Shown here in pieces: positions 8,579 through 60,637 of a DNA stretch of 64,000 nt. Position numbers and translations under genes: made by a program. How positions within the stretch are numbered: the first letter of the stretch is position 1; each line of letters starts with the position of its first letter. This stretch comes from Gemmatimonadota bacterium. Its GTDB lineage: Bacteria > Gemmatimonadota > Gemmatimonadetes > Palauibacterales > Palauibacteraceae. The stretch lies in the NCBI GenBank assembly GCA_022820995.1, contig JAJEEM010000061.1:12582-76581 (forward strand). The letters run 5' to 3'. Under the pieces are notes generated by a model. The model saw only the letters and a program-made list of their open reading frames with translations, had not been told where the DNA came from and did not search any database.

Positions 8579-9601
8579 TCAGGCCGGGTGCAGTCCGGGG
8601 AACTCGAGCCCCCGCGACTCCGGCAACCCCTGCATCACGTTGAACGCCTGCACCGCCTGTCCCGCCGCTCCCTTCATGAGGTTGTCGATCGCGCTCAGGA
8701 CCACGACCCGGTTCGAGAGCGGATCGCGCTCGAACCCCACGTCGCAGTAGTTCGCGCCCGCCAGCAGGTTGGGGTCGGGAAAGCGGTGGATGCCGCTCCG
8801 CTCCTTGACGATGCGCACGAACGGTTCGTCGGCGTACGCGCTCCGATAGATCTTCCACAGCGCCTTCTCATCGAGATCCCGGTTCAGGAACACGTGACAG
8901 GTGGCGAGGACGCCGCGCACCATTTCAACCGCCGTCGCGGAGAAATGCACGTCGCCGCCGAGCACAGCGGCGATCTCGGCCGCGTGGCGGTGGCCGGTCG
9001 GCCGATACGACCGCATGGCGCCGCTGCGCTCCGGGTGGTGGCTGCCCTCGCTGGCGCGGTTCCCGGCCTCGCTCGATCCCACCTTGACCTCGATCACGAC
9101 CGAGTCCGCGACGCCCTCCCGGTACAGCGGCAGGAGCCCGAGGATGGAGGCCGTCGCGTTGCAGCCCGCACAGGCGACGAAGTCCGCGCCGGCCAGCGCC
9201 TCGCGGTTCACTTCCGCGATCCCGTACACGAACGACTCCAGGAGTTCCGGCCGAGGGTGCGGCCGGCCGTAGAAGCGCTCGTAGTCCGCACCGTTCCGGA
9301 GCCGGAAGTCGGCTCCCAGGTCGACGATCCGCCCCGCCAGCGACCGAAATCCGTCGATGCGTCGGGACGACTCCCCGTGCGGGAGGCAGAGGAAGAGCAC
9401 GTCGCACTCGGACAGCTCCTCGAGCGCGCTGAAGCGCAGTCGCGTGACGCCGCGCAGGTTGGGATGGACCCGGTGCGCGAACCGTCCCGCGAAGCGCTCC
9501 GACGTGATCTGCCGCACCTCGACATCGGGATGTCCGAGCAGGAGCCGCAGCAACTCGCCGCCGGCGTATCCCGAGCCGCCCGCGATCGACGCGCGGATCA
9601 A
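8579..9601 (-). CDS. lysY: N-acetyl-gamma-glutamyl-phosphate reductase / [LysW]-aminoadipyl-phosphate reductase
   Basis: NAD(P)-binding '[16 protein letters not shown]' N-terminus and catalytic Cys motif region '[10 protein letters not shown]'. Overlaps lysX by 4 nt. Confidence 0.85.
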
Positions 9602-10446
9602 CGGACCGCCGCCCGATCCGGCGAGACGACGTAGGATACGATCCTCTCCGGAATGTTCACGCCCGTCGCCTCGATGCTGTTCCGGAACTCCATCGTGTAA
9701 TTCACCTCGTTGACCAGCAGTTCGCCGCCGCTCTCGAGCAGATCCACCGCGACCACGCCCCCGCCCATGGCGGCCGCCGCCCGCAGGGAAAGCTCCGCGA
9801 TCTCGCTCGTCACCGGAAAGTTCGAGGCCGTTCCGCCGCGGGCCGTGTTCGTGATCCAGTGCTCGGACGACCGGTAGATGGCCGCCACGCAGTCGTCGCC
9901 CACGACGAACGCGCGGATGTCGCGCCCGCCCTTCTCGACGTACTTCTGCACGAAGAAGATCGAGTGATGATAGCTGCCCAGGATCGCCTTGTGTTCGAGG
10001 ACCGTCTCCGCCGCGTGCCGGTCGTTGATCCTCGACAGCAGGCGGCCCCAGGAGCCGACCGCGGGCTTGAGGACCACGGGATAGCCGAGTTCCTCAATGG
10101 CCTCGAGCGCGGATTCCTCGGTGAACGCGACCCTGGCTTCGGGCTGCGGCACACCGCATTCCCGGAGCGACGCCGCGGTGAGGATCTTGTCGCCGCAGCG
10201 GCGCGACACCTCGTAGCGGTTCACGCAATCGAGGCCGGCCCCCTCGAAGAGCCGCAGCGCGTGCATCGCCCGCGAGTGGTTGATGGAGCGCTCGAGGACG
10301 ACATCCACATCCGGGACGCTGCGGAAGTCGAACACGAGCCTGCGGTCGTCCAGAAACACCAGTTCGACGTCGCTGCGCCGGCGCAATTCCGCGATCAGCA
10401 GCTTCTCGTCCTTGCGGATGAGGGAATGAAGAAAGCCGACTCTCAT
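9598..10446 (-). CDS. lysX: RimK-family ATP-grasp ligase (alpha-aminoadipate/glutamate--LysW ligase)
   Basis: ATP-grasp/RimK architecture ([21 protein letters not shown]...). The start ATG overlaps the lysW stop (ATGA). The track ORF extends further 5' in low-complexity sequence, so the start was trimmed to MRVGF. Confidence 0.8.
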
Positions 10447-51465: not shown

Positions 51466-51828
51466 ATGCCCGTTTTGATCGAAGCCCCGGCCGTCATCGA
51501 GGCGGCCGGGAACAAGCCCAAGCGCATCGAGGAGTTCGCCGGCCGAGTGCGGACGGAACACGAAGCCGTCAGCGTGGCGCGCATGGTGGCGCCCTCCGGG
51601 TGGGTCGAACCGGGTCAGCGTCCCGAGTTCGAGGAGATCACCGTCGTGCTGAAGGGATCACTGCGCGTAGAGCACGAAGGCGGCGCCCTGGACGTGGAAG
51701 CCGGCCAGGCGGTCGTGACGCACGCCGGCGAATGGGTCCGCTACAGCACGCCGGGCCCCGAAGGCGCCGAGTACATCGCCATCTGCCTCCCCGCCTTCTC
51801 CCCCGACACCGTCCACCGCGATCCCTAA
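51466..51828 (+). CDS. Cupin-domain protein
   Basis: About 120 aa with the two-motif cupin pattern ('EEITVVLKGSLRVEHEG...AGEWVRYS'). Confidence 0.6.
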   Translation: MPVLIEAPAVIEAAGNKPKRIEEFAGRVRTEHEAVSVARMVAPSGWVEPGQRPEFEEITVVLKGSLRVEHEGGALDVEAGQAVVTHAGEWVRYSTPGPEGAEYIAICLPAFSPDTVHRDP

Positions 51829-52673
51829 CCCGGGGGACGTTCCCAGCGAACGTGGGGTACGTCCCGGAATCGTTTCGCCATCACCTCGAGCGCTTCCGGG
51901 TTGTCGTCGACAAGGAGGAAGTCGCGCCCGAGTTCGTGGGCGGCCATCCCGGTCGTGCCGCTGCCGGCGAAGAAATCCAGCACGAGGTCACCGGGGTTCG
52001 ATGAGGCCGTGATGATGCGGCGCAGGATTCCGAGCGGCTTCTGGGTCGGATACCCCGTCCTCTCCGCGCCGCTCGTGGGGACGATCGTGTGCCACCACGT
52101 GTCCGTTGGGAGCTTGCCGCGCGCGGCCTTCTCCGGGCCCACCAGGCCGGGAGCCATGTACGGGATGCGCTCGATCTCGTCCACGTTGAAGACATAATTC
52201 GACAAGTCCTTCACATAGAACAGGATGTTGTCGTGCTTCGCCGGCCACCGCGTCTTCGGTCGCGCGCCGTAGTCGTACGCCCAGATGATCTCGTTCAGGA
52301 GATGGTCGGGCCCGAACAGGTCGTCGAGGAAGAGCCGGCAGCGGTGCACTTCCCGGTAGTCGACGTGGAGATAGAACGACCCGTGTGGGGCGAGGACGCG
52401 GTACGCCTCGACGAGCCGGGGCCCGAGGAACGCCAGGTAATCGTCGAACCGGTCATCGAACCGGCGCGTGCCCACCGCGGTCGTCTCGTAGCGCGCCCCC
52501 TGGAAGCCGGTCCGGTCCCCGTCCTCGCCATGTGAAGCGCGACGCGTCCTGATCCGGGTCCGCCGCTGCGTCCGGCCGGTGTTGAAGGGCGGGTCGATGT
52601 AAATGAGATCCGCGTGGCCGTCCGGCATGCCCCGGAGCGCCTCCAGGTTGTCCGCCAGCATGATCGTGGGCAT
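51825..52673 (-). CDS. Site-specific DNA methyltransferase, beta-class (N6-adenine or N4-cytosine), solitary
   Basis: Motif IV 'DLIYIDPPFN' precedes motif I 'LVLDFFAGSGTTGMAAHELGR' (the beta permutation). No restriction endonuclease gene adjacent. Start trimmed to MPTIM. Confidence 0.8.
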   Translation of the reverse strand: MPTIMLADNLEALRGMPDGHADLIYIDPPFNTGRTQRRTRIRTRRASHGEDGDRTGFQGARYETTAVGTRRFDDRFDDYLAFLGPRLVEAYRVLAPHGSFYLHVDYREVHRCRLFLDDLFGPDHLLNEIIWAYDYGARPKTRWPAKHDNILFYVKDLSNYVFNVDEIERIPYMAPGLVGPEKAARGKLPTDTWWHTIVPTSGAERTGYPTQKPLGILRRIITASSNPGDLVLDFFAGSGTTGMAAHELGRDFLLVDDNPEALEVMAKRFRDVPHVRWERPPG

Positions 52674-53041
52674 GGGGACCTTTCGGGCGATGCTCCGCAC
52701 GTCGCAGGAAGAGGGCAGTAGTCCACCGAAGCTAGGGCAGCCGCGCGGACGTCTCAACGCGCTGACGGAAGTGACGCCCATTGCCCGTTCGGGCGGCCGC
52801 GCGCCGCGATCAGCAGGCCCCCCGGGAGCCTGGTCCGGTCCCCTGCGTCACCACCGAGGGTCTCGTGACGCATCGCTGAATCGGATCGTGTCATGGCTGC
52901 CCCCGTTGCCCGTCGGGGACGAGTGGGCCACGATGGTGGCGCGAAAGATCGATCGTTCGAATCGCGGTTGGACCGCCTCGGCGTCCGGCCGCCCCAGACG
53001 CTGGACATGCGCCGCGCGACGGCGCCGCACCGGAGACGCCA

Positions 53042-54351: not shown

Positions 54352-55281
54352 ATGAAGCGAATTCTGGTTCCGCTGGACGGTTCCGACTTCTCGGAGCGGG
54401 CGCTCGATCCGGCGGCGGCCCTTGCGATCCGGGACGGAGCGGAGATTCGCCTCCTGTCCGTCGTCCCTACCGAGCCGCCGATTCCGCTTGCCTTCGCGGA
54501 CCCCACGCTCCTGGGGAACTGGGTGGATGAAGAGGGCGCTCGCAGGCGGGACTACGTAGAGCGGACGGCCGCCGGGGCGGCCCGCTCAGGAGAGTGCCGC
54601 GTCGAGGCCCTCGTGCGCGTGGGGAAGGTGGACGCGGCCATCCGGGAGGTTGCCGAAGAGTTCGACGTCGATCTCGTCGTGGCGACGACGCATGGCCGGG
54701 GAGCGTTCCAGCGGGCCTGGCTCGGCAGCACGGCGGACCGGCTGCTGCGCAGTCTGGAGCGCCCGCTCCTCCTCCTTCCGCCGACGCCGGCCGACGCGGA
54801 CCGGTTCTCGGAGGCGGAGGTCCGTCACGTGCTCGTTCCCCTGGACGGTTCAAAGGCGGCGGAAGCCGCCCTCGACGCGCTGCCCCTGGTGCTTCCGGGA
54901 TCGGCGGGCGTCCGGCTCACGCTCGCGACCGTCGTTGAAGAAGGGTTTGCGCTCCCGGCGGCCTACCTTCCTAACGCGATCTCCGAGGAATCGGCTCGCG
55001 ACGAGCGCAGGAAGAAAGCGGCGGCCTACCTGGCCGGGATCTCGCGGCGAGTGGAGGAGGGCGGCCTCGGCGTCCCGGACACGCATGTGCTCACGGCGGA
55101 CAGCGCGGCGCACGGCCTGCTTCGCTACTGCAAGGAGGCCGACGTCGACATGATCGCCCTCTCGACGCATGGGAGGGGCGGCGTTTCCCGGTTCGCCGTG
55201 GGCAGCGTCGCCGACAAGCTGGTTCGGGGCGCCGGGATCCCCGTCCTGGTCATCCGGCGTCCCCGGGACGAGAACCCGTGA
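54352..55281 (+). CDS. Tandem universal stress protein (UspA) domains
   Basis: Two repeats of 'ILVPLDGS...' through 'DLVVATTHGRG / DMIALSTHGRGGVSRFAVGSVADKLV...PVLVI' (ATP-binding Usp motif). Confidence 0.8.
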   Translation: MKRILVPLDGSDFSERALDPAAALAIRDGAEIRLLSVVPTEPPIPLAFADPTLLGNWVDEEGARRRDYVERTAAGAARSGECRVEALVRVGKVDAAIREVAEEFDVDLVVATTHGRGAFQRAWLGSTADRLLRSLERPLLLLPPTPADADRFSEAEVRHVLVPLDGSKAAEAALDALPLVLPGSAGVRLTLATVVEEGFALPAAYLPNAISEESARDERRKKAAAYLAGISRRVEEGGLGVPDTHVLTADSAAHGLLRYCKEADVDMIALSTHGRGGVSRFAVGSVADKLVRGAGIPVLVIRRPRDENP

Positions 55282-55303
55282 GGGCCTGACACAGGGAGAT
55301 CGG

Positions 55304-56758
55304 ATGCCGGATCGCAGGGAGTTTCTGAGCCTGGCAGGCGTCGGCGGGGGGAGCGCGCTCCTCGGCGCCTGCGCGGGAGGGGGCTCGTTCGACGCCGGCC
55401 GGGCCGGGGCCGAGGGACTGGATCCGACGGCCCGGGCGCTGCTGGACGAGTTGCGTGAGATCCCGGTCGACGACACGCACTGTCACCCGCTCACCTTCGA
55501 CGACGCGCAGACGGACCCCGACGCGTTCGTCGAGCGGCTGGCGCTCTCCGCCTTCCCCATGGACCGCTACTTCCCGGCGGGCGTCTACCAGCGCTGGCGG
55601 GCCGGAGACGCGGCGGAGCGGAGCGCGCTCGACGCCGAATTCGACATCGCCCCCACGCGGGCGCGCGTCCTCGAACAGGCGGGGGAGACCGTCTTCCTCC
55701 GCTATCTCGTGAAGGAACTCGCCGCCTTCCTCGACTGCGACGCGACCTTCGAGGCGGTGATCGAGGCCCGGAACGAGAGGGGCGCGGACTACGCGAGCTA
55801 CCTCGGCGCCCTGTTCGCCGACGCGAACATCGAGAACGCGATGCTCGACATGGGCTACCGCGAGGGGATGGACCAGGACGGCGTGACGCGCTTCAAGGAC
55901 GCGATCGCCCCCACACGCGGCCGTCACATCCTGCGCGTCGACACGATCCTCGGCGGCCTCATGCGCGACGACCTCGACCTCGGCATCGACGAGATCGAGA
56001 CGCGGATGATGGCCGAGATCGAGGCCGGCCTGGATGGCAACGGCAACCTCGGCGCTCCCTCGTACGGGATGAAGTCGTACCTGCTACCGCGACTGGGGTT
56101 GCTGAAGCCGCACTTCGACCGGGCCGCGACCCGCCGTTCGTGGGACGCGTTCCGGGCCCTCCGCGCGCGTGGCGAGGTCCCCGCGGCCGACGCCCGGGAC
56201 CGCGACGACTACTGGCAGATGCAGAGCGAGGCCCTCCTCTACCTGCACTCGCTCGCGCTCGAAGCCTGCCTCGAACGGGACATGCCGATGCAGTTCCACG
56301 CCGGCGACGGCGAGGCCCCGCGCGGGATCATGCGGAACCAGGATCCCTTCCTCATGGAGGAGATGGTCCGCTTCGAGCGCGGCGGCGTGATGCGCATGCC
56401 GCAGGTCATCCTCATCCACGCCGGTTACCCGCTGATCGGCCAGGCCGCGTGGCTGACCCACCTGTACGCGAACTGCCACTTCGAACTGTCGCTCGCCGCG
56501 CCCCTCATCCACCACGGGATGCTGCGCATGTTCCTCGAGGTGATGGAGGTCGTCCCCCTCTCGAAGATCCTGTTCGGGAGCGACGCCTATCACCTGCCGG
56601 AGTTCTACTGGCTCGCGGCCAAATGGGGCCGGCGATTCCTCGCGCAGGCGCTCGGGATCTACGTGGATGCCGGAATCCTGACCCGCGACGAGGCCGTGGC
56701 GGCCGCGCGCATGATCCTGCACGAGAACAACCGCCGCCTCTACCACCTCGACGGTTAG
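55304..56758 (+). CDS. Amidohydrolase-2 (ACMSD/LigW-like TIM-barrel) family protein, Tat-signal
   Basis: 'RREFLSLAGVGG' Tat motif. 'DTHCHP' N-terminal metal motif, 'QFHAGDGE' and C-terminal 'GSDAYH' ligand pattern typical of Amidohydro_2. Confidence 0.7.
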   Translation: MPDRREFLSLAGVGGGSALLGACAGGGSFDAGRAGAEGLDPTARALLDELREIPVDDTHCHPLTFDDAQTDPDAFVERLALSAFPMDRYFPAGVYQRWRAGDAAERSALDAEFDIAPTRARVLEQAGETVFLRYLVKELAAFLDCDATFEAVIEARNERGADYASYLGALFADANIENAMLDMGYREGMDQDGVTRFKDAIAPTRGRHILRVDTILGGLMRDDLDLGIDEIETRMMAEIEAGLDGNGNLGAPSYGMKSYLLPRLGLLKPHFDRAATRRSWDAFRALRARGEVPAADARDRDDYWQMQSEALLYLHSLALEACLERDMPMQFHAGDGEAPRGIMRNQDPFLMEEMVRFERGGVMRMPQVILIHAGYPLIGQAAWLTHLYANCHFELSLAAPLIHHGMLRMFLEVMEVVPLSKILFGSDAYHLPEFYWLAAKWGRRFLAQALGIYVDAGILTRDEAVAAARMILHENNRRLYHLDG

Positions 56759-56833
56759 CCGAAAGCCTCTCCACGTTCAGGCACGACTACAAACCGTCGC
56801 CGTCGCAGAGTTGCGATTCCGATTGCAAGGACG

Positions 56834-57079
56834 TTGCAAACAAGATCGTACAGACGTTGCAAATCCGATCATCACAACGGCCGCTGGGCCGCCTTCGAAG
56901 TCAAGTTGGGTACGCACCGGATCGACGACGCTGCCAGGGGCCTGCTCAAGTTCGCGCAGCGGGTGGATACGGACCGGTGTGGAGAACCGGCGGCCCTCTG
57001 CATTATCGTTCACGATGGCTACGCATACGAACGTGCGGACGGTGTCGCCGTAATCCCCGTCGCGGCCCTTGGACCGTAG
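56834..57079 (+). pseudogene. C-terminal fragment of a COG1373/DUF4143 AAA+ ATPase gene (gene remnant)
   Basis: 81-aa ORF '...WAAFEVKLGTHRIDDAARGLLKFAQRVDTDRCGEPAALCIIVHDGYAYERADGVAVIPVAALGP' matches only the extreme C-terminus (DUF4143 end, '...V.iPl.aL') of about 400-aa COG1373 ATPases. It lies in a locally low-GC stretch with short direct repeats. Confidence 0.45.
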
Positions 57080-57139
57080 CGGTCCGTCCCTCCCGCCGCC
57101 GGGCGGAGCGCCGCCGCACCATCGATGGAGGACGACGCA

Positions 57140-58803
57140 TGAAGACGATCGACCGCGCCATCCGAAGCGCGCTGACCGCCATTTCGGCGCTGATCCTGCT
57201 GGCCACCACGGCCGCGGCCGTGCAGCCGGCGCAGATGGTCGGGGCTCCGGACCGGGGCCCGGACGAGGGCGACGGACCGTACGACCGCCTCATCATCCGC
57301 GGCGCCACCGTGATCGACGGCACCGGCGCGCCCCCCATCGGGCCGATGGACATCGTCATCGAGGGGAACCGCATCGTCGACGTCCGCGGCGTCGGCGTCC
57401 CGCAGCGGCCCATCGATGAGTCGCGGCGTCCCGGACTCGCGGTCGAGAGCAACCCGGACGCGATCGTGCATGAAATCGACGCGACCGGCATGTACGTCCT
57501 GCCGGGCTTCGTCGACCTCCACCTGCACACCGGCGGCGTCCCCAAGGCGCCCGAGGCCGAGTACACGTACAAGCTGTGGATGTCGCACGGGATCACGACC
57601 GGGCGCGGCGTCGCCTTCGGCCCCCACGACTGGTCCGTGCAGGAGAAGGCCCGGAGCGCGGCGAACGAGATCGTGGCCCCCCGCATGTGGGTCTATCCCT
57701 TCACCGGCGCGGGCGGCGAGGGATGGGGAGGCCGCATCATCGACACCCCGGAGGACGCGCGGGACTGGGTCCGGTACGTGAAGGAGTCGGGCGGCGACGG
57801 ACTCAAGCTCAACTCGTTCCGCCCGGAGATCATGGAGGCGCTGCTCGACGAGGCCGCCCGGCTCGGACTCGGCAGCACGGCGCACCTGGGACAGATGGGC
57901 GTCGCGCAGATGAACGCGCTCGACGCCGCGCGCCTCGGCCTCGGCACCGTCACGCACTTCTACGGCCTGTTCGAGGCGCTGTACAAGGACTACGACGTCC
58001 AGCCGTGGCCCCCCGAGATGAACTACAACGACGAGCAGCACCGCTTCGGCCAGGTCCCGAGGCAGTGGAACCTGATCCACGAGCGCGGCAGCCCCGAGTG
58101 GACCGCCTTTCTCGAGGAGATGCTCTCGCACGACGTCACCCTGGACCCGACGATGACCGCCTACCAGGCGAGCTGGGACGTGGACGACCAGATGTACGCC
58201 CCGTGGCACGAGACCTACACGCTGCCGACGCTGTGGGAGTTCTACGAGGCGAACCGGGAGGATCACGGCTCCTACTACTTCGACTGGACGACGTGGGAGG
58301 AGGTCGCCTGGCGCAACTTCCTCGAGGTGTGGCACGACCTGCTCAACGACTACAAGAACATGGGCGGCCGCGTCACGGCGAGTTCGGACGCGGGCTACAT
58401 CTACAACCTCATGGGCTTCTCCACGATCCAGGAGATGGAACTTCTGCAGCACGCCGGGTTCCATCCGCTGGAGGTGATCCGCGCCGCGACCATGCACGCG
58501 GCCGAGACGCTGTTCAAGCCGACGGGCCGCCCCATCGAGTTCGGCGTCGTGCGCCGCGGCCTGCTGGCGGACCTCGTGATCGTGGACGAGAACCCGATCC
58601 ACAATCTGAAGGTCCTGTACGGGACCGGCGCCCGGCGCCTGAACGACGAGACGGGAGAGGTGGAGACGGTCGGCGGCATCCTCTACACGATCAAGGACGG
58701 CATCGTCTACGACGCGAAGCAATTGCTCGCCGACGTGGCCGAGATGGTCGAGGAACAGAAGCGCACCACGACCACCACCACCCAAGGCGGGGAAACAGGA
58801 TGA
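57140..58803 (+). CDS. Amidohydrolase-superfamily metallo-hydrolase, exported
   Basis: Signal peptide and a 'VDLHLHT' HxH metal motif. Large TIM-barrel with Thr-rich C-terminal tail (TTTTTQGGETG). Confidence 0.75.
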
Positions 58804-58840: not shown

Positions 58841-60637
58841 GTGACGAATCAACTGTTCGATGCCACGCCCTTCCTGACTCAGGACGAAGGCCAGCACTTC
58901 GACCGCAAGTCCATGTTCGAGGGTCCGCCCGGTGCCAAGCGGCCGCGGAGACGTCGTGAGATGAGGGAGCAGGTGGCCGAGTATGTCGCCGCGTTCGCGA
59001 ACGCCGATGCCGGCGTCCTCCTGTTGGGCGTCGAGGACGACCGTGAAGTGACGGGCCATGGGCTTCCTTCCTCGGCGGTGGAATCCCTCCTGGACGCGCC
59101 CCGGGCTCGGCTGGATCCGCCGCAGCCACCTGGATTCACGGTTTCCCACAAAGGCGTCGAGTTGATCGTATTCGACGTGCCTGCCGCGGATGCGCCGGTG
59201 CAAATGACCGGGAACGGCTTCCCGCTTCGCGTGGGCGACCAAACCGTCCGAGCACGGGAAACGCAAATCGCGGCGACCAAACAGCAGGGGATGTATGAGA
59301 GCTGGGAGAGTCGCCGTTCCTCGTGCTCCGTGGCGGACCTCGATCCGAAACTGCTGGCCCGGGCACGCGCTGGCGCAGGACTGTCTGCGTTATCGGACGA
59401 GGAATACCTGCTGAAACGGAAGCTGGCGGACCAACGCGGACGCCGAATCGTGCTCCGTAAGGCGGCGGAATCGTTGTTCGCGCGCCAAGATCCGGACCAT
59501 CCCAACGCCGGAGTCCGCCTGTTTCGCGTCATCGGAACCGAGCGGCGGTTTGGGGCAGAGCACAACGTGGAGGAACGACCTCGCATCGAAGCCAGCCTGC
59601 CGCACGTCCTCGATGAAGCTCACAAAGTGGTCTCGGGATTGCTTCGACGACCGTCCCGTCTGGTCGGCATGCGGTTCCAGGAGATGCCGGAGTACCCGGA
59701 CTTCGCTTGGCGAGAGGCGTTGCACAACGCGGTGGCTCATCGCGACTACGCCATCCAGGGAAGCGGCACCGAGATATGGCTGTTCGAGGACCGCATGGAG
59801 GTGGTCAGCGCAGGCACCCTGCCCGACGGTGTTACGCTGGAGGAAGTGCTCCGACTGGAACGGGTACACAGAAGTCGTAATCCACGCATCGTAAGGGCGC
59901 TGGTCGATCTCGGTTTCGCGAAGGACCAGGGCGAGGGCATCCCCCGCATGTTTGCGGAGATGGAAGACGCCTTCCTGCCGCAGCCCGAGTTGGACGTTGG
60001 TGGGGAGCGCATAATCGTTACGCTGCGCAATACGTCAACTCTAACGGCTTCGGATCGCCAGTTCGTGGCCGGTCTGGGGAACGCCGACCTGAGCCGCCAC
60101 GAGTTTCGTGCGCTTCTCATGGCTTACAGGCGCGGCCGCGTGGACAACGCCGCGCTGCGTTCGGTCACGGGACTCGACACCCTACGCGCGAGCCATTTGC
60201 TGCGCGGTCTTCGCGACCGGGAACTTCTCACGCTGCAGGGGCGTGGGGCGGATAGCTTCTACACGCTTACGCCGGTGGTCCGTGACCTCGCCCTGGATCG
60301 AGGGGAGTTGTCGGGCGGATCGAGGGGAGCTGTCCGTTCGGATCGGGGGGAGCTGCCCGAAGAGGTGCAGCGCGCGCTCGACGGATTGGGATTGCGGCCT
60401 CGGAAAGAACGGCTACGTGCGGTCATCGAAGCGATCTGCGCGGCCAGGGAATGGACGACACCGGGAGAAGTCGCGCGATTCCTGAGCTTCTCCCAGCGTA
60501 AGCTGAGCGGTCGCCACCTGACGCCGATGGTGGAGGCGGGGCGGCTCATGCGGCGCTATCCGGACAACCTCACACACCCCGAGCAGGCGTACAGAGCCAA
60601 CAGCTCTGAAGCGTCTGCCGAAAAGGGAACATCATGA
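58841..60637 (+). CDS. AlbA_2 ('divergent AAA'/Schlafen-like) + HATPase_c_4 + wHTH protein (RecG-C-terminal-like putative regulator)
   Basis: N-terminal 'DEGQHFDRK...EYVAAFANADAGVLLLGVEDDREVTG' AlbA_2 pattern. Central 'REALHNAVAHRDY...GTEIWLFEDRMEVVSAG' HATPase_c_4 pattern. C-terminal HTH-like tail. Stop overlaps the msrA start (ATGA). Confidence 0.7.
   Translation: MTNQLFDATPFLTQDEGQHFDRKSMFEGPPGAKRPRRRREMREQVAEYVAAFANADAGVLLLGVEDDREVTGHGLPSSAVESLLDAPRARLDPPQPPGFTVSHKGVELIVFDVPAADAPVQMTGNGFPLRVGDQTVRARETQIAATKQQGMYESWESRRSSCSVADLDPKLLARARAGAGLSALSDEEYLLKRKLADQRGRRIVLRKAAESLFARQDPDHPNAGVRLFRVIGTERRFGAEHNVEERPRIEASLPHVLDEAHKVVSGLLRRPSRLVGMRFQEMPEYPDFAWREALHNAVAHRDYAIQGSGTEIWLFEDRMEVVSAGTLPDGVTLEEVLRLERVHRSRNPRIVRALVDLGFAKDQGEGIPRMFAEMEDAFLPQPELDVGGERIIVTLRNTSTLTASDRQFVAGLGNADLSRHEFRALLMAYRRGRVDNAALRSVTGLDTLRASHLLRGLRDRELLTLQGRGADSFYTLTPVVRDLALDRGELSGGSRGAVRSDRGELPEEVQRALDGLGLRPRKERLRAVIEAICAAREWTTPGEVARFLSFSQRKLSGRHLTPMVEAGRLMRRYPDNLTHPEQAYRANSSEASAEKGTS

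What the first reader, a model, noticed from the sequence alone, without database searches (positions are those of the whole stretch)
56760..57140. Low-GC scar with COG1373/DUF4143 ATPase C-terminal remnant and short direct repeats
The 380-bp gap between two amidohydrolase genes is visibly lower in GC than the surroundings. It contains the direct repeat 'gacgttgcaaa(c/t)' twice within 30 nt (56826-56866). It encodes only the last about 80 aa of a DUF4143-type AAA+ ATPase (ending '...VIPVAALGP'). This looks like the decayed remnant of an inserted element or of a deleted ATPase gene, and it marks a recombination-prone boundary next to the AlbA_2/HATPase_c_4 gene.
Basis: partly seen in the sequence, partly recalled or inferred. 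Interest (0 to 1): 0.55.

Follow-up and report, generated by a model that had tools for sequence, protein, structure and literature searches.

The report
Leftover tail of a deleted ATPase gene
The gap holds the last 66 codons of a 420-codon candidate anti-phage ATPase gene that is still whole at the same spot in two sister genomes; the short repeats beside it are what remains of a 23-base tandem array that sits in front of this gene family across many bacterial phyla.

Summary
Two related Candidatus Palauibacter genomes (L003, about 93% nt identity; L088) carry an intact 420-aa AAA_14+DUF4143 gene (PADLOC PDC-S01, E=1e-70) between the same two amidohydrolase genes. Relative to L003 the window lacks 1167 bp: codons 1-354 plus 106 bp upstream. 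What remains is G355-P420 (56879-57076). An independent assembly (L001) has the identical junction.

The "direct repeat" is not a recombination scar. It is units 2 and 3 of three surviving 23-bp units (56810, 56833, 56856) of the gene's upstream tandem array. The GC dip is confined to this array (46% GC). The remnant itself is 66% GC.

Two further results:
1. A 23-bp-period array lies upstream of 60 of 69 family genes examined, and of plasmid homologues in Bacteroides, Collinsella, Lentilactobacillus and Mycobacterium. The unit sequence differs between clades. I found no description of it in the searchable literature.
2. The remnant is not decaying freely. For window versus L001, dN/dS is 0.065 (p=0.005) with no indels. 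The cause is unresolved.

No integrase, transposase or attachment-site repeats flank it. The find itself is ordinary. Its context is moderately interesting.

The parts
55169..56758 (+). Upstream flanking gene, Amidohydro_2 family, stop codon TAG at 56756-56758
   Evidence: ORF list. Pfam PF04909, E=8e-10. Collinear with L003 7259-8714 and L088 4304-5752.
56759..56809 (+). Spacer between the upstream gene and the array, also present upstream of the intact gene in L003
   Evidence: Three-way alignment: 45 of 50 aligned bases match L003 and L001, with one 1-bp indel.
56810..56878 (+). Three surviving 23-bp units of the ATPase gene's upstream tandem array. Unit 1, 56810-56832: GTTGCGATTCCGATTGCAAGGAC. 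Unit 2, 56833-56855: GTTGCAAACAAGATCGTACAGAC. Unit 3, 56856-56878: GTTGCAAATCCGATCATCACAAC.
   Evidence: Phased motif matches. It is the only phased TTGCRA array in the window. L001 has 4 units (TRF period 23). L003 has 5 full units plus a promoter-proximal TTGCAA. 46% GC.
56878..56879 (.). Deletion junction, ambiguous by 1 nt. Relative to L003, 1167 bp are missing here (L003 8833-9999): 106 bp upstream of the start (the proximal array units and the -10-like TAGAAT) plus codons 1-354.
   Evidence: blastn: window 55303-56877 = L003 7259-8832 and window 56878-58782 = L003 10000-11948. L003 sequence. The same junction is in L001.
56879..57079 (+). 3' remnant of the AAA_14+DUF4143 (PDC-S01-type) ATPase gene: codons for G355-P420 (56879-57076) plus the original stop TAG (57077-57079). 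It retains strand b3 with the E-x-K motif (AFEVK), helix a2 and strands b4 and b5 of the PD-(D/E)xK-like domain. It lacks the Walker A ATPase domain, the helical middle region, and a1, b1 and b2 (the D of EVDAIV).
   Evidence: tblastn with the intact L003 protein: window 56867-57076 matches residues 351-420 at 93% identity. Alignment. AF2 model secondary structure. Pfam domains of the intact protein: AAA_14 at 26-136, DUF4143 at 200-364.
56834..57079 (+). Mechanical ORF of 81 aa with a TTG start. The first 15 codons are read from array units 2 and 3 and are not homologous to the family.
   Evidence: In L001 the called gene instead starts at an ATG created by an extra array unit and has lost the stop codon.
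57080..57138 (+). GC-rich spacer (80% GC) carrying GGAGGA (57127-57132) ahead of the ATG of the downstream gene
   Evidence: Sequence. GC. Variable among relatives, with 32- to 41-bp indels.
57139..58803 (+). Downstream flanking gene, Amidohydro_1/Amidohydro_3 family
   Evidence: Pfam PF01979 and PF07969. Collinear with L003 and L088.
58841..60637 (+). AlbA_2 (Schlafen-like) + HATPase_c_4 gene. It is a second variably present gene of the same neighbourhood and is not part of the remnant.
   Evidence: Pfam PF04326 and PF13749. PADLOC pAgo-associated profile, E=3e-19. Absent from L003, where the amidohydrolase stop is followed directly by msrA. Present in L088.

Best explanation
The 380-bp gap is the vestige of a single-gene locus encoding a 420-aa AAA+ ATPase fused to a PD-(D/E)xK-like domain (Pfam AAA_14 + DUF4143; PADLOC candidate defence gene PDC-S01). 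In the ancestor of this Palauibacter clade the gene sat between the two amidohydrolase genes, preceded by its own promoter region.

That promoter region is a tandem array of 23-bp units. Each unit is an RTTGCRA hexamer plus 16-17 further nt. In many family loci the last unit reads as a -35 element plus a 17-nt spacer, followed by a TAnnnT -10 element.

One deletion of about 1.17 kb removed the promoter-proximal units, the -10 element, the start codon and codons 1-354. Its left end lies at a unit boundary of the array and its right end after codon 354. It shows at most 1-2 nt of microhomology, so it was illegitimate recombination or slippage (inferred).

What is left is three distal array units fused to the last 66 codons and the original stop. 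The remnant cannot encode the ATPase or a complete nuclease-like fold. No sigma-70-type promoter is detected in the gap. If transcribed at all, it is probably by read-through from the upstream amidohydrolase gene (inferred).

Shown: the synteny, the junction, the domain content and the array. Inferred: the deletion mechanism, the loss of function and the promoter role of the array.
For: 1. Synteny. L003 (Ca. Palauibacter sp. chromosome NZ_OZ253465.1) is collinear with the window at 92-95% identity on both sides. It has 1167 extra bp exactly at window 56877/56878. These complete a 420-aa ORF with AAA_14 (E=4e-12) and DUF4143 (E=1e-33) domains. The ORF covers PADLOC PDC-S01 at full length, E=1e-70.

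2. A second genome, L088, has the order SDF - Amidohydro_2 - intact 420-aa gene (P0121, 92% identical to the L003 protein) - Amidohydro_1/3 - HATPase_c_4 - PMSR.

3. The same junction is in an independently assembled contig, L001 from run SRR8304772. It is therefore not an assembly artefact.

4. The remnant aligns to residues 351-420 of the intact protein at 93% identity. In the AF2 model (pLDDT 83-94 over the C-terminal domain) this part is b3-a2-b4-b5 only.

5. The three units align with units of the 5- to 6-unit arrays upstream of the intact genes.

6. In at least 15 family loci the last unit's TTGCRA is followed, after 17 nt, by TAnnnT (read).

7. The strict sigma-70 consensus scan finds no promoter-like site in the window gap 56600-57300. 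The same scan also finds none upstream of the intact L003 gene, so it is weak evidence either way.

8. The family is decay-prone. 14 of 80 genome loci carry truncated or frameshifted copies. Array-to-gene-interior fusions recur independently in L002, L014, L027 and L038.
Against: A free-running pseudogene should accumulate non-synonymous changes and indels, and this one has not.
- Between the window and L001, which share the deletion, there are 5 synonymous changes, 1 non-synonymous change and 1 stop loss. dN/dS is 0.065 (Fisher p=0.005).
- There are no indels in the 201 bp. The adjacent non-coding DNA shows about 10% substitutions and several indels.

Loss of function is inferred, not shown. 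The direction of the event (deletion here rather than gain elsewhere) rests on parsimony: two intact sister loci and a large family of full-length homologues.
Confidence: 0.93

Rival explanations
1. The remnant has been kept as a working small gene. A mini-protein of about 66-80 aa, the C-terminal half of the PD-(D/E)xK-like domain, is still made. It is selected for some role, for instance modulating full-length paralogues elsewhere in the genome. This concerns present function and is compatible with an origin by deletion.
For: - Between two deletion-bearing genomes, dN/dS is 0.065 (p=0.005) and there are no indels.
- Other truncated copies behave alike. L069 and L077 share a 5' truncation junction and show dS=0.26 and dN/dS=0.087 (p=2e-7). 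L027/L038 give 0.12 and L009/L012 give 0.04.
- The L003 genome carries at least one full-length paralogue (L008).
Against: - The translation signals are not conserved. The window offers only a TTG at 56834. L001 uses an ATG created by an extra repeat unit and has lost the stop codon (TAG to CAG), which adds 44 residues and overlaps the next gene.
- The gene's promoter-proximal region, including the -10-like hexamer, was deleted.
- The fragment lacks a1, b1 and b2 and so cannot form the fold alone.
- Only 7 substitutions underlie the test.
- A four-gamete violation inside the remnant (codons 11 and 64) fits recombination with intact alleles in the population. That would import selected sequence without any function for the remnant.
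Confidence: 0.12
2. It is the scar of an integrated mobile element. The 3' end of the ATPase gene served as an attachment site, and the short repeats are att or arm-type sites left after integration or excision.
For: In L002, a 95-aa fragment of the family lies 82 bp downstream of a tyrosine-recombinase gene (PF00589, E=5e-18). It is preceded by a GTTGCGAAAGCGATCAC unit.
Against: - No integrase or transposase lies near the window's remnant.
- Both flanks are collinear with the sister genomes, and nothing is inserted.
- The truncation points differ among loci: residues 128, 205, 319, 341 and 355. A site-specific mechanism would give a fixed point.
- The repeats are found upstream of intact genes in 60 of 69 loci. 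They belong to the gene, not to an element end.
- No inverted partner array occurs within 10 kb in any locus.
Confidence: 0.03
3. It is an assembly or binning artefact. A mis-join collapsed the gene in a metagenome-assembled sequence.
For: The related sequences are all metagenome-assembled genomes. Tandem repeats can confuse assemblers.
Against: The identical junction occurs in an independent assembly from a different run (L001). That copy carries lineage-specific substitutions and a different number of array units.
Confidence: 0.02

Closest known systems
PADLOC PDC-S01 (AAA_14 + DUF4143, COG1373), a candidate single-gene anti-phage defence ATPase
   Same: The intact orthologue at this locus (L003) matches the PDC-S01 profile PDLC04790 over its full length, E=1e-70. 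It has both Pfam domains. DUF4143 is classed in the PD-(D/E)xK superfamily (PMC3424549). PDC-S01 is reported as the fourth most common defence candidate in prokaryotes, and most such candidates still await experimental validation (PMC12988326). Patchy presence among close relatives, as seen here, is typical of such genes.
   Different: The window holds only residues 355-420. The P-loop domain, most of the DUF4143 model and the first half of the nuclease-like core are gone. The window's copy is therefore a vestige and not a member in working order. The defence function of the family itself is unproven.
Ordinary bacterial pseudogene remnants left by 5' deletion
   Same: An intact orthologue at the syntenic site, a clean deletion junction with minimal microhomology, and loss of the promoter and start codon.
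   Different: The substitution pattern is that of a constrained coding region (dN/dS 0.065, no indels) rather than neutral decay. Several other truncated copies of the family show the same pattern.
Iteron arrays overlapping autoregulated rep promoters of plasmids (tandem direct repeats at about 22-bp spacing bound by the cognate Rep protein); also DnaA-box or ORB clusters next to initiator AAA+ genes. This comparison is from general knowledge.
   Same: - Head-to-tail direct repeats with a fixed period of 22-24 bp (about two helical turns) lie immediately upstream of, and overlapping, the promoter of a gene for a putative DNA-binding ATPase.
- The unit sequence differs between clades and between paralogues while the period is kept.
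- Units within a locus are more alike than units between loci.
   Different: - No binding has been shown.
- The genes are mostly chromosomal and are not linked to replication genes.
- The protein is not related to Rep or DnaA by any test run here.
- The conserved hexamer in Longimicrobiales looks like a -35 element, so part of the repeat could simply be promoter duplication.
Multiple terminal repeats of IS21-family insertion sequences
   Same: The only other AT-rich non-coding 23-bp-period arrays found in 1.46 Mb of fetched loci lie next to an IstA/IstB-like gene pair (L023 16396-16464). A similar unit sits at a contig end in L075. The IstA/IstB assignment was made by reading the ORF translations, not by a profile search.
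   Different: Their unit sequence is unrelated. They lie at element ends beside a transposase. The ATPase arrays have no transposase and no inverted partner.

Membership tests
AAA_14 + DUF4143 ATPase (COG1373 / PADLOC PDC-S01) | N-terminal P-loop AAA domain (Pfam PF13173, Walker A GxxxxGK[ST]) | tested here: not met
   Absent from the window. Nothing upstream of 56867 matches in any frame. It is present in the orthologue L003 at residues 26-136.
AAA_14 + DUF4143 ATPase (COG1373 / PADLOC PDC-S01) | DUF4143 domain (Pfam PF13635) above the gathering score | tested here: not met
   The 81-aa ORF has no Pfam or NCBIfam hit at E<=1. In L003 the model covers residues 200-364, and the window keeps only residues 355-364 of that span.
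AAA_14 + DUF4143 ATPase (COG1373 / PADLOC PDC-S01) | Complete PD-(D/E)xK-like core (a1, b1, b2 with D, b3 with E-x-K, a2, b4) | tested here: not met
   Only b3 (AFEVK), a2, b4 and b5 are encoded. D347 and everything before it are deleted.
AAA_14 + DUF4143 ATPase (COG1373 / PADLOC PDC-S01) | Sequence homology of the surviving part to family members | tested here: met
   131 hits with E down to 1e-24, many carrying PF13635. 93% identity to residues 351-420 of the L003 orthologue.
Gene vestige produced by deletion | Intact orthologue at the syntenic position in close relatives, with collinear flanks | tested here: met
   L003 and L088.
Gene vestige produced by deletion | Loss of start codon and promoter | tested here: met
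   The original ATG, the -10-like TAGAAT and the proximal array units lie inside the missing 1167 bp. The strict consensus scan finds no promoter in the gap. It also finds none upstream of the intact L003 gene, so this scan adds little.
Gene vestige produced by deletion | Neutral evolution after inactivation (dN/dS near 1, indels) | tested here: not met
   dN/dS is 0.065 (p=0.005), with no indels between the two deletion-bearing genomes. The test rests on only 7 substitutions, and recombination with intact alleles is a possible cause.
Integrative-element or IS scar | Recombinase or transposase gene, or flanking att or terminal repeats bounding extra DNA | tested here: not met
   None in the neighbourhood. 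Nothing is inserted relative to the sister genomes. The arrays are never paired in inverted orientation.
Iteron-like or operator array | At least 3 head-to-tail units of constant period directly upstream of the gene, conserved across homologues | tested here: met
   23 bp is the best period in 60 of 69 upstream regions, against none among 1242 control segments at the strong threshold. TRF period 23 gives 35 rows, against 3 for period 22 and 2 for period 25. Also seen in plasmid homologues from cultured bacteria.
Iteron-like or operator array | Binding by a cognate protein and a regulatory effect | not testable with these tools
   Needs EMSA, footprinting or ChIP, plus reporter assays.

The most novel reading that the evidence does not exclude
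The 23-bp-period tandem array, of which the window keeps three units, is an undescribed and near-universal cis-element of PDC-S01/COG1373 ATPase genes. It is an iteron-like array read by the ATPase's own DNA-binding module, one protomer per 23 bp. It would set the gene's autoregulation and perhaps nucleate the oligomer. The C-terminal stumps of these genes would be retained under selection rather than decaying. That the array exists and is family-wide is observed here. The speculative parts are cognate binding, that it is unpublished, and that the stumps function.
Probability: 0.4. Interest if true: 0.7.

Novelty: new member of a known kind. Interest (0 to 1): 0.42.

Why it matters
Taken alone, this is one more dead copy of an abundant and patchily distributed candidate defence gene. 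It shows that this small neighbourhood (DNA methylase, ATPase, AlbA_2/HATPase_c_4) gains and loses such genes between genomes that are about 93% identical.

The wider value is the handle it gives on PDC-S01. A 2026 survey calls PDC-S01 the fourth most common defence candidate in prokaryotes, and it has no known mechanism. A fixed 23-bp repeat array with clade-specific sequence in front of nearly every gene of the family is a concrete prediction about what the protein recognises or how it is controlled. The prediction can be tested directly in cultured carriers such as Bacteroides ovatus, Collinsella aerofaciens and Lentilactobacillus hilgardii.

The apparent purifying selection on truncated copies also bears on how 'pseudogenes' of defence genes should be annotated.

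Tried and rejected
- Pfam and NCBIfam on the 81-aa ORF and on the antisense 78-aa ORF: no hits. Homology was only found by database search.
- In one search all of the best 120 hits listed were short (64-186 aa). This suggested a family of stand-alone short proteins. I rejected that idea. Searching genomes and searching with a full-length query showed that most relatives are 416-450 aa. Several short loci inspected at DNA level are truncated or frameshifted copies, and many short calls begin at a conserved internal Met.
- The idea that the gene's 3' end is an attachment site, raised by the integrase next to the L002 fragment: rejected. Truncation points vary, and the window has no recombinase and no inserted DNA.
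- Exact-pattern scan of metagenome contigs for the deletion junction: five matches, none homologous to the locus, so chance hits. No further deletion-bearing relatives were found.
- Sigma-70 and terminator consensus scans of the gap and of the L003 upstream region: nothing found. The L003 -35/-10 pair has a 20-nt spacer and fails the scan.
- Rfam at a permissive threshold over 56500-57400: only a sub-threshold Guanidine-III match inside the downstream gene.
- PDB sequence search with the intact protein: no hit. Foldseek gives only generic AAA+ matches and weak Can2 matches.
- Microhomology at the deletion ends: at most 1-2 nt, so there is no evidence for repeat-mediated recombination.
- The remnant is in frame with the upstream amidohydrolase, separated by a single TAG. 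I judged this coincidental because the frame relation is broken in L001 by a 1-bp indel and a 23-bp indel.
Full report
**What is at the coordinates**

The gap 56759-57138 lies between an Amidohydro_2 gene (55169-56758) and an Amidohydro_1/3 gene (57139-58803), both on the + strand. The 11-mer GACGTTGCAAA occurs at 56830 and 56853 and nowhere else in the window. The mechanical ORF 56834-57079 has a TTG start, is 81 aa long and ends ...VIPVAALGP. Pfam and NCBIfam do not recognise it. A search of the large protein collection gives 131 relatives with E down to 1e-24, many carrying PF13635/DUF4143. The alignment shows that homology begins only at GRWAAFEVKLG. The conserved upstream EVDAIV segment is missing.

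**GC content**

- The gap as a whole is 63.7% GC against 68.9% for the window, the 5th percentile of 380-bp windows.
- The dip is concentrated in 56803-56880 (46-47% GC). This is one of the two lowest 70-bp stretches in the 64 kb.
- The homologous coding part is 65.7% GC.

**Origin: a deletion, shown by synteny**

A scan of one genome per species for relatives of the fragment returned 80 loci. In most of them the match is the 3' end of a 416-450-aa ORF.

The best locus is L003, from the complete chromosome of a Candidatus Palauibacter sp.
- It is collinear with the window at 92-95% identity. Window 55303-56877 equals L003 7259-8832, and window 56878-58782 equals L003 10000-11948.
- The 1167 bp present only in L003 complete a 420-aa ORF (ATG at 8939, stop at 10199-10201).
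- That ORF has AAA_14 (residues 26-136) and DUF4143 (residues 200-364) domains. It matches PADLOC PDC-S01 at full length, E=1e-70.

A second Palauibacter genome, L088, has the order SDF - Amidohydro_2 - intact 420-aa gene (P0121, 92% identical to the L003 protein) - Amidohydro_1/3 - HATPase_c_4 - PMSR.

An independently assembled 1-kb contig, L001 from run SRR8304772, has the same junction as the window.

Hence the gene was ancestrally present. One deletion removed 106 bp of upstream DNA plus codons 1-354, leaving G355-P420 and the original stop (56879-57079). The junction shows at most 1-2 nt of microhomology.

In an AlphaFold2 model of P0121, mean pLDDT is 75 and the C-terminal domain scores 83-94. 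The C-terminal domain reads a1 (313-330), b1, b2 (D347), b3 (E361, K363), a2, b4, b5. The window keeps only b3 onward. Foldseek confirms an AAA+ fold for the N-terminal part and finds no close solved relative.

**The short direct repeats**

The repeats are not a scar. The window has three phased 23-bp units starting at 56810, 56833 and 56856. L001 has four. L003 has five plus a promoter-proximal TTGCAA followed by TAGAAT and the ATG. L088 has a similar array. The deletion's left end is the end of unit 3.

The same architecture is found throughout the family.
- In 1.46 Mb of fetched loci, every phased array of at least 3 TTG[CT][AG]A motifs at 22-24-bp spacing (25 arrays) lies directly upstream of a family gene.
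- TRF finds 35 rows with period 23, against 3 for period 22 and 2 for period 25. Nearly all lie upstream of family genes, including distant paralogues on the other strand.
- Among 69 genes with a complete N-terminus, 23 bp is the best self-similarity period (12-40 bp tested) of the upstream 250 bp in 60, and 24 bp in 2. The 1242 control segments show no strong 23-bp period.
- Other clades keep the period but not the sequence.
- Plasmid homologues of 30-45% identity in cultured Bacteroides ovatus, Collinsella aerofaciens, Prosthecochloris, Lentilactobacillus hilgardii and Mycobacterium riyadhense also carry arrays of 22-23-bp period. Agrobacterium and Pseudomonas mendocina show 22 bp. Thermus pTT27 shows none.

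In Longimicrobiales the unit is cRTTGCRA plus 15 variable positions. Unit position 18 is always a pyrimidine. Non-core positions are 46% identical within a locus and 31% identical between loci. In at least 15 loci the last TTGCRA is followed after 17 nt by TAnnnT (read). The proximal unit therefore doubles as the -35 element plus spacer of the gene's promoter.

I infer, but cannot show, that the array is an operator or iteron-like site. It is most simply read as bound by the ATPase's own DNA-binding module. The searchable literature holds 3 papers mentioning DUF4143 and 8 mentioning COG1373. None deals with mechanism or upstream repeats.

**Is the remnant decaying?**

Polarised with L003 and L088, the window lineage has 2 synonymous changes and 1 non-synonymous change. 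The L001 lineage has 3 synonymous changes and a stop loss.
- For the window/L001 pair, Nei-Gojobori counts give dS=0.105 and dN/dS=0.065, Fisher p=0.005.
- There is no indel in the 201 bp. The adjacent spacer, array and post-stop DNA show about 10% substitutions and several indels.
- Other truncated copies behave alike. L069/L077 share a truncation junction and give dN/dS 0.087, p=2e-7. L027/L038 give 0.12 and L009/L012 give 0.04.

Against a working small gene:
- The start differs between the window (TTG) and L001 (an ATG made by an extra unit).
- L001 has lost the stop.
- The promoter-proximal region was deleted.
- The fold is incomplete.

A four-gamete violation inside the remnant suggests recombination with intact alleles. 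That could keep the remnant 'fresh' without any function. I leave this unresolved and give the functional reading about 12%.

**Rejected alternatives**

The integrative-element idea came from L002, where a 95-aa fragment follows a tyrosine recombinase. It fails here for four reasons.
- There is no recombinase.
- Nothing is inserted relative to the sister genomes.
- Truncation points vary among loci.
- The repeats precede intact genes.

An assembly artefact is excluded by L001.

**Context**

The neighbourhood is a mosaic among close relatives.
- The AlbA_2+HATPase_c_4 gene (58841-60637) is absent from L003 and present in L088.
- The tandem-Usp gene (54352-55281) is absent from L088.
- An N6_N4 DNA methylase gene lies at 51825-52781 on the - strand.

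So 'recombination-prone' is fair as a description of the region, but the remnant is not adjacent to the AlbA_2 gene.

**Verdict**

This is a correctly spotted gene vestige of a known family, ordinary in itself.

Noticed in passing
L003 8764-8906; L088 5828-5950; about 60 of 69 family loci; L089 (Bacteroides ovatus plasmid), L090 (Collinsella), L096 (Lentilactobacillus), L097 (Mycobacterium riyadhense): A tandem array of 3-6 units with a fixed 23-bp period (rarely 22 or 24) sits directly upstream of AAA_14+DUF4143 (PDC-S01) genes in many phyla. The unit sequence is clade-specific. The last unit overlaps the -35 element and spacer of the promoter. I found no description of it in the searchable literature.
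   Followed up: yes
window 56879-57076 versus L001; also L069/L077, L027/L038 and L009/L012: Truncated copies of the family show dN/dS of 0.04-0.12 and no indels, even where the truncation junction is shared by both genomes. This is unlike freely decaying pseudogenes. Possible causes are function or recombination with intact alleles.
   Followed up: partly
window 58841-60637: The AlbA_2 (Schlafen-like) + HATPase_c_4 gene hits pAgo-associated PADLOC profiles. It is precisely absent from L003, where the amidohydrolase stop is followed directly by msrA, and present in L088. It is a second presence/absence polymorphism 1.7 kb from the remnant.
   Followed up: partly
window 54352-55281: A tandem universal-stress-protein gene (two Usp domains, E=2e-53) lies between the SDF transporter and Amidohydro_2 genes. 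L088 has only about 50 bp there, and L003 has a shorter stretch that does not align.
   Followed up: no
window 51825-52781 (- strand); low-GC spot 52156-52243: An N6_N4 DNA methyltransferase gene with no obvious partner restriction gene. It contains the lowest 70-bp GC stretch of the window (45.7%), just below the array.
   Followed up: no
L002 8761-10288: A 95-aa fragment of the same family lies 82 bp downstream of a tyrosine-recombinase gene. It is preceded by one and a bit array units that are homologous to the L017 array. Whether the integrase is linked to the truncation is unknown.
   Followed up: partly
L002, L014 (array 2527-2588 fused at residue 128), L027, L038: Independent deletions run from inside the upstream array into the gene interior, ending at residues 341, 128, 319 and 205. 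This may reflect a fragile array. It may also only reflect that the array fills most of the short intergenic space and that the loci were selected for keeping the 3' end.
   Followed up: partly
L023 16396-16464 and L075 6519-6632: Tandem arrays of 23-bp period with an unrelated unit (…CATGCCGATCA…GATTCCA…). In L023 the array lies next to ORFs that read as IstA/IstB-like (IS21 family, judged from the translations only). These are probably the multiple terminal repeats of that IS family.
   Followed up: partly
window 60295-60359: A 23-bp-period, GC-rich tandem repeat (2.9 copies) lies inside the AlbA_2/HATPase_c_4 coding region, which reads DRGELSGGSRGAV…DRGELPEE. It is unrelated to the AT-rich arrays.
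   Followed up: no
window 56756-57079: The remnant is in the same reading frame as the upstream amidohydrolase gene, with a single TAG between them and no further stop. The frame relation is not kept in L001, so it is probably a coincidence.
   Followed up: yes
L095 (Pseudomonas mendocina plasmid NZ_CP115818.1), about 130-260 bp upstream of the ATPase gene: Five to six near-perfect 22-bp repeats (ACAGATTCCGGTATTCACGACT). They could be this gene's array or the plasmid's replication iterons. This was not distinguished.
   Followed up: no
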